A stretch of DNA of 17,127 nucleotides from a virus (Duplodnaviria > Heunggongvirae > Uroviricota > Caudoviricetes). Location: the IMG/VR virus record IMGVR_UViG_2713896769_000015, one strand, 5' to 3'. The notes under the pieces were generated by a model that was not told the DNA's origin, searched no databases, and was given only the letters and a program-made list of their open reading frames with translations. The position numbers and the translations under genes are program-made. This document shows positions 2,558 to 17,127 of this stretch, piece by piece (position 1 is the first letter of the stretch; every line of letters starts with the position of its first letter).

Positions 2558-5111
<2,554 letters not shown>

Positions 5112-14725: not shown

Positions 14726-15274
14726 TCAGGCTTGAATACCTTTATCGAATCCCGGTAATAAAAACTGTCCCTGTCTCTCCAGACGTTCCAGCTTTGCAAG
14801 CAATTGAGGTTTTTTCGTTCTCCCCCAGCGATTGAGCAGACGGCCTGACATGCTGGCGACATCCTTCTCTTTCATGTACTCCAGCATTACGGCGTTACGT
14901 TCTGCTTCATAACTTTCGCTGTACTTACGGAGTTCTGCTGACATCCAGTTAAACGCATTGATATAGGCTTCTTTAACAGCATCGGCTTTTGCCCCGTTAA
15001 ATCCCATAACCAGCATAACGAAGCCACTAAAGTCCATGCGGTAGTAAATCTGTTTCTTGTCAAAAATACCTAAGTCATTGATTTTCTCGACGGCCCCAAA
15101 ATGGGTTGTCGAGAATTCCTCAGAACATCTCAAACATTTAATAGCCCTAATCACATGCTGATGGCGTTTACCAAATGCCCTGGCAATCTGGAAGGTGTCA
15201 GTTACCGGTTGACCTTCTGCTGCGGTAACTAACTGGCGAAAGTCGAAGTCATGATTCGCAATTAATTCATTCAT
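14726..15274 (-). CDS. rha: Phage regulatory protein Rha family (pRha domain)
   Basis: MNELIANHDFDFRQLVTAAEGQPVTDTFQIARAFGKRHQHVIRAIKCL...YYRMDFSGFVMLVMGFNGAKADAVKEAYINAFNWM... fits the pRha pattern (GKRH-[DQ]-x-V-[LI]-R, LVMGFxGxKA, FKEAYI). Start taken at ATG 15272-15274; the track ORF extends to a GTG at 15343. Confidence 0.7.
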   Translation of the reverse strand: MNELIANHDFDFRQLVTAAEGQPVTDTFQIARAFGKRHQHVIRAIKCLRCSEEFSTTHFGAVEKINDLGIFDKKQIYYRMDFSGFVMLVMGFNGAKADAVKEAYINAFNWMSAELRKYSESYEAERNAVMLEYMKEKDVASMSGRLLNRWGRTKKPQLLAKLERLERQGQFLLPGFDKGIQA

Positions 15275-15424
15275 GGCGTTGCCTGCTTCTTTGAAATGAA
15301 CCTTTGCCGCACAGGAAACCAGCCCACCGAGGCTCGCCAGCACTAACTGGTATCCTCAAAGGCCCATTCCAAAGGGTCAGGTTCGGTGTTTATTGTGCGC
15401 TGCGGTGCGCGGTGAAATACCGGT

Positions 15425-15930: not shown

Positions 15931-16424
15931 TGTTGCCCCCACAAACAGACTTCACGCTCAATCTCGCGGCGAGTCATCAGCCCTTTCCATTGCTTACCGC
16001 CAGCGTATGTCCAGCGCCGTAGCTGATCACATGCGCCTTTGATATCGCCCTGGTTTATTTTGCGAAGAAGCGTCGATGTTCTGAAATTGCCAGCGCCCAC
16101 GTTGTAAACGAACGAGTAAAGAGCGCCGCGCGTTGTTTCCGGTATATCGACGTTGATGTACGGGTTAATTTGTCTGGCGACCGTGGCAAGGTCTTTATTC
16201 AGGAGGGCTTTGCATTCTGCTTCGGTATACGTTTTACCGGGCATGATGTCTTTTCCGGTGTGTCCGTGACATACAGTCCATACGCCAACGATATCTTTGT
16301 ATGGTATGTAGCTGACACCTTCCAGACCATCGTTACCACCTGGACCAGTGATGAGCACAGACGCTATGGCAACAGCCCCACCACCAATAGCAGCTGCAAC
16401 AGCCTTGCGTAATGACGGCGACAT
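15927..16424 (-). CDS. R: SAR endolysin (phage 21 R21-like lysozyme, GH24)
   Basis: 165 aa, [59 protein letters not shown]...: Gly/Ala-rich N-terminal signal-anchor-release segment followed by the E-x8-D-x5-T catalytic motif of T4-type lysozymes. Closely matches phage 21 R as I recall it. Confidence 0.9.
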
Positions 16425-16630
16425 TATTCACCTCTCGCAGCCTTACGCTTATCTTCTTTAATCTTGAAATAAAGATTTGTCAGATACGTCAGCAGGCCAA
16501 ACAGCAGACTTCCCAGCACACCTATTGCCACCCACTGGGACGGAGAGACTTTGTCCAGCAGCTGCAGTAACCAGTATCCCGTCCCCACCGCTGACGTGGT
16601 GTATGACACACCTGTTGTGATTTTTTCCAT
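16424..16630 (-). CDS. S: Class II holin / pinholin (phage 21 S21-like)
   Basis: 68 aa, [68 protein letters not shown]: two transmembrane segments and a basic C-terminus, near-collinear with S21. SD ggaga about 9 nt upstream. Stop overlaps the R start. Confidence 0.85.
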
Positions 16631-16670
16631 CTGATGTATGTCTCCGTCACCGCCGACAGAAAATGAAAGT

Positions 16671-16711
16671 AAAGAAAAACAAAAAAGCCGCCAGTGTCAC
16701 CCACTGACGGC
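16671..16711 (-). terminator. Strong intrinsic terminator about 40 nt upstream of S (tR'-like)
   Basis: Minus-strand RNA GCCGUCAGUG-ggugA-CACUGGCGGC (10-bp stem, one G-U) followed by UUUUUUGUUUUUCUUU. Plus-strand hairpin at 16687-16711 with a-tract at 16671-16686. Confidence 0.6.
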
Positions 16712-16788
16712 CAACGCCGGGAGCCGTGATTATGGCATTCAGGCTCTGCTAAAAATGCCAGATAACATTCCGGCCTCCCCTGATTCAG

Positions 16789-16815
16789 GTTATAAATGAC
16801 ACAATATCTTGACAA
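16789..16815 (-). promoter_or_regulatory. Candidate sigma-70 promoter on the minus strand (possible late promoter pR' analogue)
   Basis: Minus strand TTGTCA - 15 nt - TATAAC. Spacer is at the short limit and the -10 lacks the final T. It would give a roughly 100-nt RNA ending at the 16671-16711 terminator. Confidence 0.3.
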
Positions 16816-16885
16816 CATCCGTCACTGTCTGTCAGAAAATGTACTGCCATATAGAAGCAACATGTGAAGTACATCTATCCTTTTG

Positions 16886-16928
16886 AGCCAGCACCTCTCC
16901 ACCGAAAGTCAGTGCTGGCTGTTTTTTT
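16886..16928 (+). terminator. Plus-strand hairpin plus T-tract (intrinsic-terminator-like), module 1
   Basis: agccagcac (16886-16894) pairs with gtgctggct (16912-16920) around a 17-nt loop, followed by gttttttt (16921-16928). The reverse complement has no T-run, so this is plus-strand specific. Confidence 0.55.
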
Positions 16929-17035
16929 CCTTAATAAGGCATCTGTAACTGAAACAATCCGCATATTGATAATATATTGACAGGCATCATTGCTGTCTGT
17001 GAAAAATAAGTCTCTACAAACATATAAGGCCTTTT

Positions 17036-17077
17036 AGCCAGCGTCTTCTTTTTCAGGTCAGTCGCTGGCTTTTTTTA
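17036..17077 (+). terminator. Plus-strand hairpin plus T-tract (intrinsic-terminator-like), module 2
   Basis: agccagcg (17036-17043) pairs with cgctggct (17063-17070) around a 19-nt loop, followed by ttttttt (17071-17077). Diverged paralogue of the 16886-16928 element. Confidence 0.55.
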
Positions 17078-17127
17078 TTATGCTGCCGGTGCATTTATCT
17101 CCAGCATCAGACTTTCTATCTCAACGC

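What the first reader, a model, noticed from the sequence alone, without database searches (positions are those of the whole stretch)
16800..17080. Tandem pair of diverged plus-strand modules (TTGACA box, CTGTCTGT box, hairpin, T-tract) upstream of the lysis cassette
Two related units sit about 150-170 bp apart on the strand opposite all phage late genes. Each has a perfect TTGACA hexamer (16809-16814; 16977-16982), a conserved CTGTCTGT box 10 nt downstream (16825-16832; 16993-17000), then a GC stem (AGCCAGCAC/GTGCTGGCT; AGCCAGCG/CGCTGGCT) followed by a run of seven T. Neither unit contains a convincing ORF; the only ATG-initiated reading is a 15-codon MYCHIEATCEVHLSF with no SD. No canonical -10 hexamer follows the TTGACA boxes, so promoter function is unproven. 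They could be prophage-encoded small RNA genes, as reported for some lambdoid prophages near the Q-S region, or attenuators or protein-binding modules. This is the least explained structured sequence in the window.
Basis: seen in the sequence. Interest (0 to 1): 0.6.

Follow-up and report, generated by a model that had tools for sequence, protein, structure and literature searches.

The report
Known prophage sRNA PasA plus neighbour
The two modules are a tandem pair of small-RNA genes in a lambdoid prophage: the first is the validated Hfq-dependent sRNA PasA, and the second is a diverged copy matching the Hfq-bound RNA catalogued in EHEC as EcOnc51/52, so the finding is real but largely already described.

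Summary
There are two plus-strand units, each with TTGACA, then N10, then CTGTCTGT, an AGCCAGC.../...GCTGGCT hairpin and a T7 run. They lie between the stop codon of the sialate esterase gene nanS-p and the holin gene, antisense to both.

Unit 1 is pasA. The window is 100% identical over 494 bp to EPEC E2348/69 prophage PP2. The published PasA coordinates map to 16844-16928 (85 nt, major form) and to 17079 (236 nt, minor form). The published northern probe matches 16898-16922 exactly.

Unit 2 shares its promoter and terminator with unit 1 (0 of 2000 shuffles score as well), but the body between them does not match. After I corrected a shift between genome versions, both EHEC Sakai Hfq-CRAC peaks EcOnc51 and EcOnc52 fall on unit 2 (17011-17088), not on PasA. 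Sakai prophage Sp4 carries unit 2 alone. In RIL-seq, RNA ending at the unit 2 terminator is always the sRNA-side partner, and its abundance relative to PasA changes about 20-fold between conditions.

The most likely mechanism is two Hfq-dependent, trans-acting base-pairing sRNAs. Whether unit 2 has its own promoter is inferred, at about 0.6. PasC and other variants are recombinants of the same promoter, body and terminator modules.

Novelty is low. The tandem paralogy appears to be unrecognised in the literature I could read.

The parts
16809..16814 (+). pasA -35 hexamer, TTGACA (perfect match)
   Evidence: It is invariant in all PasA, PasA-2 and PasC loci examined.
16825..16838 (+). CTGTCTGT box (16825-16832), which supplies a TGT extended -10-like element (16830-16832), followed by the -10-like hexamer CAGAAA (16833-16838). 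The spacer from the -35 is 18 bp.
   Evidence: Read directly from the sequence. This register predicts +1 at 16844-16846, matching the published PasA 5' end. The simple consensus scan does not call it.
16844..16928 (+). PasA sRNA, major 85-nt form. It has a roughly 42-nt mostly single-stranded 5' body, containing AGAAGCAAC (three A-R-N triplets) and UUUU just before the terminator. The published seed is GCCAGCACCU (16888-16897).
   Evidence: The window is 100% identical to E2348/69 PP2. Table S6 coordinates 743499-743415 convert to the window by window = 760343 - record. The northern probe is the reverse complement of 16898-16922.
16886..16928 (+). PasA Rho-independent terminator: a 9-bp stem AGCCAGCAC/GTGCTGGCT (16886-16920), then G, then U7 (16922-16928).
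   Evidence: The phage 434 record annotates a terminator here. Stem covariation across the family is shown.
16929..16976 (+). Spacer between the units. Several rearrangement junctions fall within it: an IS629 junction near 16954, the L326 junction near 16957, and the pO26 plasmid junction near 16930.
16977..17006 (+). Unit 2 promoter-like module: TTGACA (16977-16982), CTGTCTGT (16993-17000, with TGT at 16998-17000) and GAAAAA (17001-17006).
   Evidence: It is essentially invariant across 13 unit 2 sequence variants; the only change is one single-base insertion in one variant. That includes the 90%-identical plasmid copy.
17011..17079 (+). Unit 2 RNA, about 66-69 nt, equal to EcOnc51/EcOnc52. 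It has a 25-nt single-stranded 5' part (UCUCUACAAACAUAUAAGGCCUUUU) followed by the terminator. The same region is the 3' end of the 236-nt minor PasA form.
   Evidence: Hfq-CRAC peaks remapped. RIL-seq RNA2 reads 743267-743294 convert to 17049-17076. The minor PasA end 743264 converts to 17079.
17036..17076 (+). Unit 2 Rho-independent terminator: an 8-bp stem AGCCAGCG/CGCTGGCT (17036-17070) and a T7 run (17070-17076).
   Evidence: The phage 434 record annotates a terminator here.
17078..17127 (-). 3' end of the SASA-family sialate O-acetylesterase gene (nanS-p). The stop codon TAA is at 17080-17078 and overlaps the end of the unit 2 transcript by 2 nt.
16675..16712 (-). Late-strand intrinsic terminator between the pasA promoter and the holin start. 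It is where nanS-p transcripts made without Q antitermination should stop.
   Evidence: and the phage 434 annotation.
16424..16630 (-). Class II holin S, the first gene of the lysis cassette.

Best explanation
The region holds two tandem, paralogous small-RNA genes. They are transcribed convergently with the prophage esterase gene nanS-p and antisense to the late operon.

Unit 1 is pasA. A sigma-70-type promoter (perfect -35, TGT extended -10-like element, weak A-rich -10) gives an 85-nt RNA (16844-16928). It ends at a strong intrinsic terminator, binds Hfq, and base-pairs in trans with chromosomal and virulence mRNAs.

Unit 2 keeps the same promoter and terminator framework but has a different, shorter body. 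It yields the roughly 68-nt Hfq-bound RNA catalogued in EHEC as EcOnc51/52 (17011-17079). Its terminator also catches PasA read-through, producing the 236-nt minor form, and it stops plus-strand transcription just before it would run antisense into nanS-p.

What is shown:
- Unit 1 is identical to pasA.
- Both 3' ends exist in vivo.
- Hfq binds both RNAs.
- The promoter and terminator modules of the two units are homologous.

What is inferred:
- Unit 2 starts from its own promoter (about 0.6).
- The unit 2 body acts as a separate seed.
- The -10 register.
For: - Identity to pasA: 494 of 494 bp are identical to E2348/69 PP2. The PasA start, major end and minor end map to 16844, 16928 and 17079, and the probe matches exactly.
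- Synteny: the order esterase, sRNA, holin is the published pasA context.
- Published properties of PasA: Hfq-dependent stability, 41 RIL-seq partners and 94-100% of fragments in the RNA2 position.
- RIL-seq on unit 2: RNA2 reads lie at 17049-17076. There are 5 partners, all in the RNA2 position. Chimeric fragment counts are 119 and 54, against 4983 and 116 for PasA. The ratio is therefore 2.4% under activating conditions and 47% under non-activating conditions, which is not a fixed read-through fraction.
- Hfq-CRAC on unit 2: Table S2 uses older Sakai coordinates. The shift relative to NC_002695.2 is 0 at 1.18 Mb and +137 to +139 beyond 1.27 Mb. After correction, EcOnc52 and EcOnc51 are the same sequence, TCTCTACAAACATATAAGG...TTTTTTTATTATGCTGCC, which is window 17011-17088.
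- Their nearly equal lengths (77 and 78 nt) and peak areas (1.09M and 1.03M) fit reads shared between two identical copies.
- Sakai Sp4 carries unit 2 with no PasA upstream; IS629 sits there instead. No separate peak is listed on PasA-2 in Sp12.
- The 5' edge of the peak, 17011, is the position homologous to the PasA 5' end relative to the shared CTGTCTGT box.
- Unit 2 survives intact, promoter included, in at least four contexts that lack unit 1.
- Terminator stem: 94.9% of cells are paired and 3 of 9 pairs show changes on both sides. Shifted registers give only 22-49% pairing.
Against: - No 5'-end mapping (TEX or RACE) is available for unit 2. CRAC peak edges come from trimmed fragments and are uncertain by about 10 nt; the same peaks run about 10 nt past the U tract.
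- The Sp4 and Sp12 copies of unit 2 are identical, so reads cannot be assigned to the copy that lacks PasA.
- The authors of the RIL-seq study interpret the unit 2 end as a minor read-through form of PasA.
- The -10 elements lack the conserved T at position -7 in the register that fits the 5' ends, and the consensus scan does not call either promoter.
- The Zhu et al. 2026 preprint states that the PasA 5' end may arise by processing.
- The related loci are 90-100% identical, so promoter conservation is only weak evidence of selection.
- The biological function of PasA itself has not been established.
Confidence: 0.8

Rival explanations
1. Unit 2 is not a gene. It is a decayed duplicate whose only working part is the terminator. 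All RNA ending at 17079 starts at the pasA promoter (the 236-nt read-through form) or is a stable, Hfq-protected 3' fragment of that form.
For: - Table S6 of PMC8550237 lists 743264 as a minor end of PasA, sharing its start at 743499.
- RIL-seq and CRAC reads are trimmed fragments and do not define 5' ends.
- Neither unit has a canonical -10.
- Under activating conditions, unit 2 chimeras are only 2.4% of PasA chimeras.
Against: - The PasA terminator is strong: -16.3 kcal/mol with a U7 tract.
- The ratio of unit 2 to PasA chimeras rises to 47% under non-activating conditions.
- In Sakai the listed Hfq peak lies on unit 2, and none is listed on the upstream PasA-2.
- The 5' edge of the peak coincides with the position homologous to the PasA start.
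- The promoter module is intact in every copy examined that lacks unit 1, in several different upstream contexts.
Confidence: 0.3
2. The main role is in cis. PasA and the unit 2 RNA are fully complementary to the nanS-p 3' UTR and to the late transcript that continues into the holin gene. They would act as antisense RNAs, or by convergent-transcription interference, to control esterase mRNA stability or to keep the lysis cassette silent in lysogens.
For: - Both RNAs lie inside the 447-bp interval crossed by any nanS-p or late transcript. The hairpins do not terminate the minus strand, and the first minus-strand terminator is at 16712-16686.
- The 3' ends of both esterase paralogues are among the PasA RIL-seq targets, and late-strand RNA from 743494-743512 appears in a chimera.
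- The sRNA units are always tied to the esterase stop codon.
Against: - Most of PasA's 41 partners are unlinked chromosomal, LEE or bfp mRNAs.
- The motif reported in the esterase target is a short seed match inside the coding sequence, not the fully complementary region.
- Some esterase-holin junctions have no sRNA unit at all (L302, L303 and L311), so the lysis cassette does not need one.
- This reading can be true alongside trans-action; the two do not exclude each other.
Confidence: 0.15
3. The modules are attenuators, protein-binding sites or a small-protein gene rather than sRNA genes.
For: - The CTGTCTGT box is conserved and has no assigned factor.
- A 15-codon ORF overlaps unit 1.
Against: - There is no downstream plus-strand gene to attenuate; nanS-p converges on the units.
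- The ORF's ATG lies upstream of the mapped 5' end and is ATA in PasA-2.
- The box sits where an extended -10 element would be.
- The RNA products are documented.
Confidence: 0.03

Closest known systems
PasA (pathogenicity-associated sRNA A) of EPEC E2348/69 prophage PP2 (Pearl Mizrahi et al. 2021, PMC8550237; Zhu, Shabalina and Storz 2026 preprint)
   Same: Unit 1 is the same gene. The sequence is 100% identical, including flanks, and the northern probe site matches. It has the same position between the SASA esterase and the class II holin, on the opposite strand, and the same 85-nt and 236-nt ends.
   Different: Nothing differs for unit 1. The literature treats the sequence downstream of the PasA terminator only as the tail of a minor isoform.
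EcOnc51 / EcOnc52, orphan Hfq-binding sites of EHEC O157:H7 Sakai prophages Sp12 and Sp4 (Tree et al. 2014, PMC4104026 Table S2)
   Same: After correcting for the genome version, both peaks are the unit 2 sequence (window 17011-17088). They differ from the window only by a 2-nt loop deletion and a CT insertion before the T run.
   Different: They were never tested by northern blot. The later paper cites them as homologues of PasA. By my mapping they fall on the downstream paralogue, not on PasA proper.
PasC (E2348/69 prophage PP5)
   Same: PasC has the same promoter as pasA, identical through +6, and a related 5' body. Its terminator stem is the unit 2 type (AGCCAGCG/CGCTGGCT). Like unit 2, it abuts the esterase stop codon.
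   Different: It is a single-unit locus with its own loop and an 11-bp stem. It looks like a recombinant of the unit 1 front and a unit 2-type back.
AgvB / AsxR anti-sRNAs (Rfam RF02702, RF02703)
   Same: They follow the same genomic logic: short Hfq-binding sRNAs encoded convergently at moron sites downstream of PR' in lambdoid prophages. They form families with a conserved terminator part and a variable 5' part.
   Different: There is no sequence or covariance-model similarity. They are 51-60 nt long, against 85 nt and about 68 nt here. No sponge target is known for PasA or unit 2.
Tandemly duplicated sRNA genes such as OmrA/OmrB and PrrF1/PrrF2
   Same: Two adjacent paralogous sRNA genes, each with its own promoter and terminator and with partly diverged bodies.
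   Different: Here the body has diverged beyond recognition. Independent transcription of the second copy is not yet shown. The array sits on a mobile element, where its modules recombine.

Membership tests
PasA sRNA | Sequence identity to pasA of E2348/69, including the northern probe site | tested here: met
   494 of 494 bp are identical. The reverse complement of the probe equals window 16898-16922.
PasA sRNA | Located between the sialate esterase and the holin-lysozyme operon, on the opposite strand | tested here: met
.
PasA sRNA | 3' stem-loop plus poly-U intrinsic terminator | tested here: met
   The hairpin folds at -16.3 kcal/mol and is followed by U7.
PasA sRNA | Expression and Hfq-dependent stability | not testable with these tools
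   Shown by northern blot and RIL-seq for the identical sequence in E2348/69. Not shown for the organism the window comes from.
PasA/PasC family (for unit 2) | Alignable to PasA/PasC along the whole RNA | tested here: not met
   The promoter and terminator segments are significantly similar (0 of 2000 shuffles each). The body is not (325 of 2000).
PasA/PasC family (for unit 2) | Shared terminator stem maintained by compensatory changes | tested here: met
   94.9% of cells are paired, and 3 of 9 pairs change on both sides. A-U in PasA corresponds to G-C in PasC and unit 2; C-G becomes U-A in the L079 type.
PasA/PasC family (for unit 2) | An independent transcript bound by Hfq | tested here: inconclusive
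   The Hfq-CRAC peaks EcOnc51/52 remap onto unit 2, and RIL-seq places it in the RNA2 position. No primary 5' end has been mapped.
AgvB/AsxR anti-sRNA class | Match to Rfam RF02702 or RF02703, i.e. the conserved roughly 42-nt 3' region | tested here: not met
   No hit even at E <= 10. The same models find AgvB and AsxR in Sakai, and those sequences are unrelated to the units here.
AgvB/AsxR anti-sRNA class | Convergent sRNA gene at a moron site downstream of PR' in a lambdoid prophage | tested here: met
   Both units converge on nanS-p, between Q/PR' and the lysis genes. The concept is described.
Sigma-70 promoter | -35 and -10 hexamers with a 16-18 bp spacer | tested here: inconclusive
   Both units have a perfect TTGACA. 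The consensus scan finds no acceptable -10. Read directly, TGT plus CAGAAA or GAAAAA follows an 18-bp spacer, and that register predicts the observed 5' ends.
Rho-independent terminator | GC-rich hairpin followed directly by a U tract on the transcribed strand | tested here: met
   Both units meet this on the plus strand only. The 3' ends at 16928 and 17079 are observed in vivo.

The most novel reading that the evidence does not exclude
Unit 2 is an independently promoted third member of the PasA/PasC family, identical to EcOnc51/52, with its own seed. The esterase-holin interval would then be a tandem sRNA array built from interchangeable promoter, body and terminator modules. Recombination between the repeated modules produces PasC, the L079 type and the PasA-body/PasC-terminator chimeras, giving prophages a cheap way to shuffle sRNA seeds. 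This contradicts the statement in the 2026 preprint that pasA copies are never tandem duplicates. It also reassigns EcOnc51/52 from 'PasA homologues' to a separate gene.
Probability: 0.55. Interest if true: 0.4.

Novelty: already known. Interest (0 to 1): 0.28.

Why it matters
PasA is among the most highly connected accessory-genome sRNAs in EPEC, and it contacts type III secretion and bundle-forming pilus mRNAs. Correct gene models at this locus therefore matter for virulence regulation studies.

If unit 2 is a separate gene, three things follow:
- Deletion and overexpression experiments on 'pasA' need to separate the two RNAs.
- The EHEC peaks EcOnc51/52 should be assigned to the second gene.
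- Counts of Pas copy number and claims that tandem duplication is absent need revising.

The modular, recombining design is also a small, clear example of how prophages diversify regulatory RNAs. For a genome scan the practical message is that this region is explained and does not need to be treated as unknown.

Tried and rejected
- Rfam: nothing matches the region at gathering thresholds or at E <= 10. No Pas family exists in Rfam 15. The weak U12 and snoRNA hits are noise.
- Genome-wide motif scan: scanning genome contigs for TTGACA-N10-CTGTCTGT returned almost only chance matches in unrelated phyla. The pattern is too weak for 596 Gb, so that scan was wasted. The viral-contig scan was useful.
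- PasA 5' hairpin: the MFE fold of 16835-16930 includes a 5' hairpin. Its outer helix lies upstream of the mapped 5' end and is not conserved in PasA-2 or PasC, so I rejected it.
- escD target pairing: RNAduplex of the unit 2 RNA or PasA against the RIL-seq partner escD was no better than shuffled sequences. This says nothing about the seed.
- First mapping of EcOnc51: I initially placed it on the PasA 3' half, using the wrong genome-version coordinates. This was corrected.
- Regulator boxes: reading the CTGTCTGT region as a LexA or Pho box by eye gives no acceptable match.
- Small-protein reading: rejected because the ATG lies upstream of the 5' end and is lost in PasA-2.
- Promoter conservation in the 90%-identical plasmid copy: none of about 12 differences falls in the 30-bp promoter, which by my estimate has about a 0.09 probability by chance. 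That is too weak to count as evidence of selection.
- Literature: a full-text search for EcOnc51 or EcOnc52 found no follow-up papers.

Full report
**What is in the sequence**

- TTGACA-N10-CTGTCTGT occurs exactly twice in the 17-kb window, at 16809-16832 and 16977-17000. About 0.13 matches are expected by chance even with two mismatches allowed.
- AGCCAG-N12-30-CTGGCT also occurs exactly twice, at 16886-16920 and 17036-17070, against 0.01 expected.
- Each hairpin is followed by seven T on the plus strand. The terminator segments fold at -16.3 and -16.5 kcal/mol, with z-scores of -3.4 and -6.6.
- On the minus strand the hairpins are followed by A-rich sequence. They therefore stop plus-strand transcription only.
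- A shuffle test shows the two units are homologous in the promoter segment and in the terminator segment (0 of 2000 shuffles each). The body between them is not detectably related.

**Context**

The window is a lambdoid prophage read in reverse orientation.
- Over 16640-17127 it is 100% identical to phage 434 and 99.4% identical to Stx1a-converting phages and phage YYZ-2008. It matches about 700 of 5426 complete E. coli genomes, usually in several copies.
- The annotated phage 434 record places the region between the SASA-family sialate esterase gene nanS-p and the class II holin gene S, both on the minus strand. The nanS-p stop codon is at window 17080-17078. The holin gene spans 16630-16424.
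- That record already marks two terminators that face against the late genes, at 16910-16928 and 17057-17079. It also marks a late-strand terminator at 16675-16711, just upstream of S.

**Unit 1 is pasA**

A 2021 RIL-seq study of EPEC E2348/69 named five prophage sRNAs (PMC8550237).
- Its Table S6 gives PasA on NC_011601.1, minus strand, starting at 743499. The major end is 743415 (85 nt) and the minor end is 743264 (236 nt). The northern probe is GCCAGCACTGACTTTCGGTGGAGAG.
- The window is identical to that locus over 494 of 494 bp. The coordinates therefore convert exactly: window = 760343 - record.
- PasA is 16844-16928 and the minor form ends at 17079. The probe is the reverse complement of 16898-16922.
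- PasA was confirmed by northern blot and is less stable without Hfq. It has 41 RIL-seq partners, including type III secretion and bfp mRNAs.
- A 2026 preprint from the Storz laboratory describes the esterase-pasA-holin synteny. It names phage YYZ-2008 (NC_011356), one of my 99.4% hits, as a PasA phage.
- The 5' end at 16844 fits a promoter made of TTGACA, an 18-bp spacer ending in TGT, and CAGAAA. The preprint mentions possible 5' processing, and I cannot settle that point.

**Unit 2**

The literature treats the sequence after the PasA terminator as the tail of the minor isoform. Several results suggest it is a gene in its own right.

1. RIL-seq evidence.
   - The region appears under its own entry, pasA.E2348C_0688.IGR. 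Its reads lie at 743267-743294, which is window 17049-17076.
   - It gives 119 chimeric fragments under activating conditions and 54 under non-activating conditions. PasA gives 4983 and 116.
   - The ratio is therefore 2.4% in one condition and 47% in the other. A fixed read-through fraction would not behave this way.

2. Hfq-CRAC evidence from EHEC Sakai (Tree et al. 2014).
   - Table S2 lists EcOnc51 (Sp12, 2237479-2237555, plus strand) and EcOnc52 (Sp4, 1181998-1182075, minus strand). The later paper cites both as PasA homologues.
   - Those coordinates belong to an older genome version. I calibrated the shift relative to NC_002695.2 with independent landmarks.
   - At 1.18 Mb the shift is 0. 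The Rfam STnc100 hit at 1179745-1179935 contains the EcOnc05 peak, the EcOnc08 peak abuts its 3' end, and the EcOnc08/21/42 probe lies at 1180007-1180044.
   - At 1.27 Mb the shift is +135 to +139, from the AsxR and STnc100 ends. At 1.94 Mb it is +137 to +146, from AgvB. At 2.17 Mb it is about +140, from the EcOnc22/23/24 probe.
   - With these shifts EcOnc52 and EcOnc51 are the same sequence, TCTCTACAAACATATAAGG...TTTTTTTATTATGCTGCC. This is window 17011-17088, which is unit 2 and not PasA.
   - Their equal lengths (77 and 78 nt) and nearly equal peak areas (1.09M and 1.03M) fit reads shared between two identical copies.

3. Unit 2 without unit 1.
   - In Sp4 the pasA unit is absent. IS629 replaces everything to the left of window position ~16954, while unit 2 and its promoter module are intact.
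   - No separate peak is listed on the PasA-2 gene in Sp12.

4. Position of the 5' edge. The peak starts at 17011, which is the position homologous to the PasA 5' end relative to the shared CTGTCTGT box.

These points are suggestive, not proof. CRAC fragments are trimmed, the peaks run about 10 nt past the U tract, and the two Sakai copies cannot be told apart.

**Comparative picture**

I examined 122 esterase-proximal loci from viral contigs and genomes.
- About 70 have both units, with either the PasA body or the PasA-2 body.
- 22 have a single PasC-type unit.
- A few have a single unit with a PasA-like stem that carries a compensatory C-G to U-A change (the L079 type).
- Seven have unit 2 without unit 1, in several different upstream contexts: IS629, another IS inserted in the PasA terminator, an unrelated small ORF, and an EHEC O26 plasmid next to the uilS lactonase gene.
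- Some have no sRNA unit at all between the esterase and the holin.
- PasC has the pasA promoter and a related 5' body, joined to the unit 2-type stem that abuts the esterase stop codon.
- Body type and terminator type occur in all four combinations (PasA, PasA-2, PasC and L069), which requires recombination between paralogues.
- In the two-unit locus, the 151-bp segment containing unit 2 is flanked by direct repeats GCTGGCT(G)TTTTTTT. Unequal crossing-over between them would interconvert one-unit and two-unit loci.
- Across 11 distinct terminator sequences, the 9-bp stem is paired in 94.9% of cells and 3 pairs change on both sides. Shifted registers give 22-49% pairing.
- The preprint states that pasA copies are never tandem duplicates and that the closest pair is 22 kb apart. 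Its BLAST criteria would not detect unit 2.

**Mechanism**

I commit to the following model. Both RNAs have the standard layout of Hfq-dependent sRNAs.
- Each has a mostly unstructured 5' part containing A-R-N triplets: AGAAGCAAC in PasA, and AAAAAUAAG just before the unit 2 start.
- Each has UUUU directly before the terminator stem.
- Each has a stable hairpin and a U7 tail.
- They most likely act in trans by base pairing. The published PasA seed is GCCAGCACCU, in the 5' arm of the terminator.
- Unit 2 most likely presents its 25-nt 5' segment as a different seed. I could not test this; a duplex prediction against escD was uninformative.
- The unit 2 terminator also ends PasA read-through, 2 nt into the nanS-p stop codon.

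A role in cis is possible as well. Any nanS-p or late transcript must cross both genes in antisense before it reaches the minus-strand terminator at 16712-16686. The 3' ends of both esterase paralogues are among the PasA RIL-seq targets. However, loci that lack the units show the lysis cassette does not depend on them.

**Comparison with known systems, and verdict**

- Unit 1 is PasA itself.
- Unit 2 is the RNA already catalogued as EcOnc51/52 and as the PasA minor 3' end.
- The AgvB/AsxR anti-sRNAs share the genomic logic: convergent sRNA genes at moron sites, with conserved terminators and variable 5' parts. They are unrelated in sequence and do not match by covariance model.
- The finding is real and correctly interpreted, but it is already known in substance.
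- What appears to be new is modest. The locus is a tandem pair of paralogous modules. EcOnc51/52 map to the second unit rather than to PasA. The family evolves by module exchange.

Noticed in passing
window 2707-2829 (+); 2675-3088 (+); 3045-4196 (+): The only Rfam hit at gathering threshold in the window is isrC (150 bits). It lies inside the 5' end of an IS3-family transposase orfA fragment (HTH_Tnp_1), which is itself interrupted by an IS30 transposase gene. These insertions sit between lambda-like tail genes. The 'isrC' match here probably reflects IS sequence rather than a free-standing sRNA gene.
   Followed up: partly
window 16686-16712 (-), T run to about 16676: A strong minus-strand intrinsic terminator (11-bp stem, 7 GC pairs) lies between the pasA promoter and the holin start codon. 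It would stop nanS-p transcripts made without Q antitermination before the lysis genes.
   Followed up: partly
Tree et al. 2014 Table S2 against NC_002695.2 (L244, L245, L329-L332): The published EcOnc coordinates belong to an older Sakai sequence version. Relative to the current RefSeq record they are unshifted at 1.18 Mb but shifted by about +137 to +139 bp from 1.27 Mb onwards. Anyone mapping EcOnc RNAs onto NC_002695.2 without this correction will place them on the wrong feature. With it, EcOnc51 moves from the PasA-2 3' half to unit 2.
   Followed up: yes
L246 (NZ_CP031923.1, plasmid of E. coli O26:H11 FWSEC0001) 2440-2710: A 90%-identical copy of unit 2, together with an 87-bp remnant of the esterase 3' end, sits on an EHEC plasmid beside a UilS-family N-acyl-homoserine lactonase gene and IS elements, with no pasA upstream. 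In complete E. coli genomes, unit 2 has 100 plasmid locations and unit 1 only 7.
   Followed up: partly
L069; L079, L251 and L291; L021: These loci carry mosaic sRNA variants. L069 has a PasA body with a PasC terminator. L079, L251 and L291 have a PasA-2-like body with a terminator carrying a compensatory C-G to U-A pair, abutting the esterase directly. L021 has a further body variant. Body and terminator modules reassort among paralogues.
   Followed up: partly
L302, L303, L311: Some esterase-holin junctions contain no Pas-type unit at all. Their intergenic region is about 170 bp and holds only a late-strand terminator. The sRNA modules are therefore optional cargo.
   Followed up: no
window 14726-15343 (-): A gene encoding a Rha-family regulatory protein with an ORF11CD3 domain lies between the lysis cassette and the small terminase gene (Nu1). 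This is a typical moron position.
   Followed up: no
window 16949-16978 (+) and 16999-16971 (-): The consensus scan calls two weak promoter-like sites (9 of 12 matches each), both using the AT-rich TATATT just upstream of the unit 2 -35. One would give a longer unit 2 transcript. The other points toward the holin on the late strand. The number found equals chance expectation.
   Followed up: no
L326, upstream of unit 2: In one viral contig, unit 2 is preceded by an unrelated short minus-strand ORF (MKNILNLYPTKTNTT...) that has its own terminator. The junction is at almost the same position (window ~16957) as the IS629 junction in Sakai Sp4, which hints at a module boundary there.
   Followed up: no
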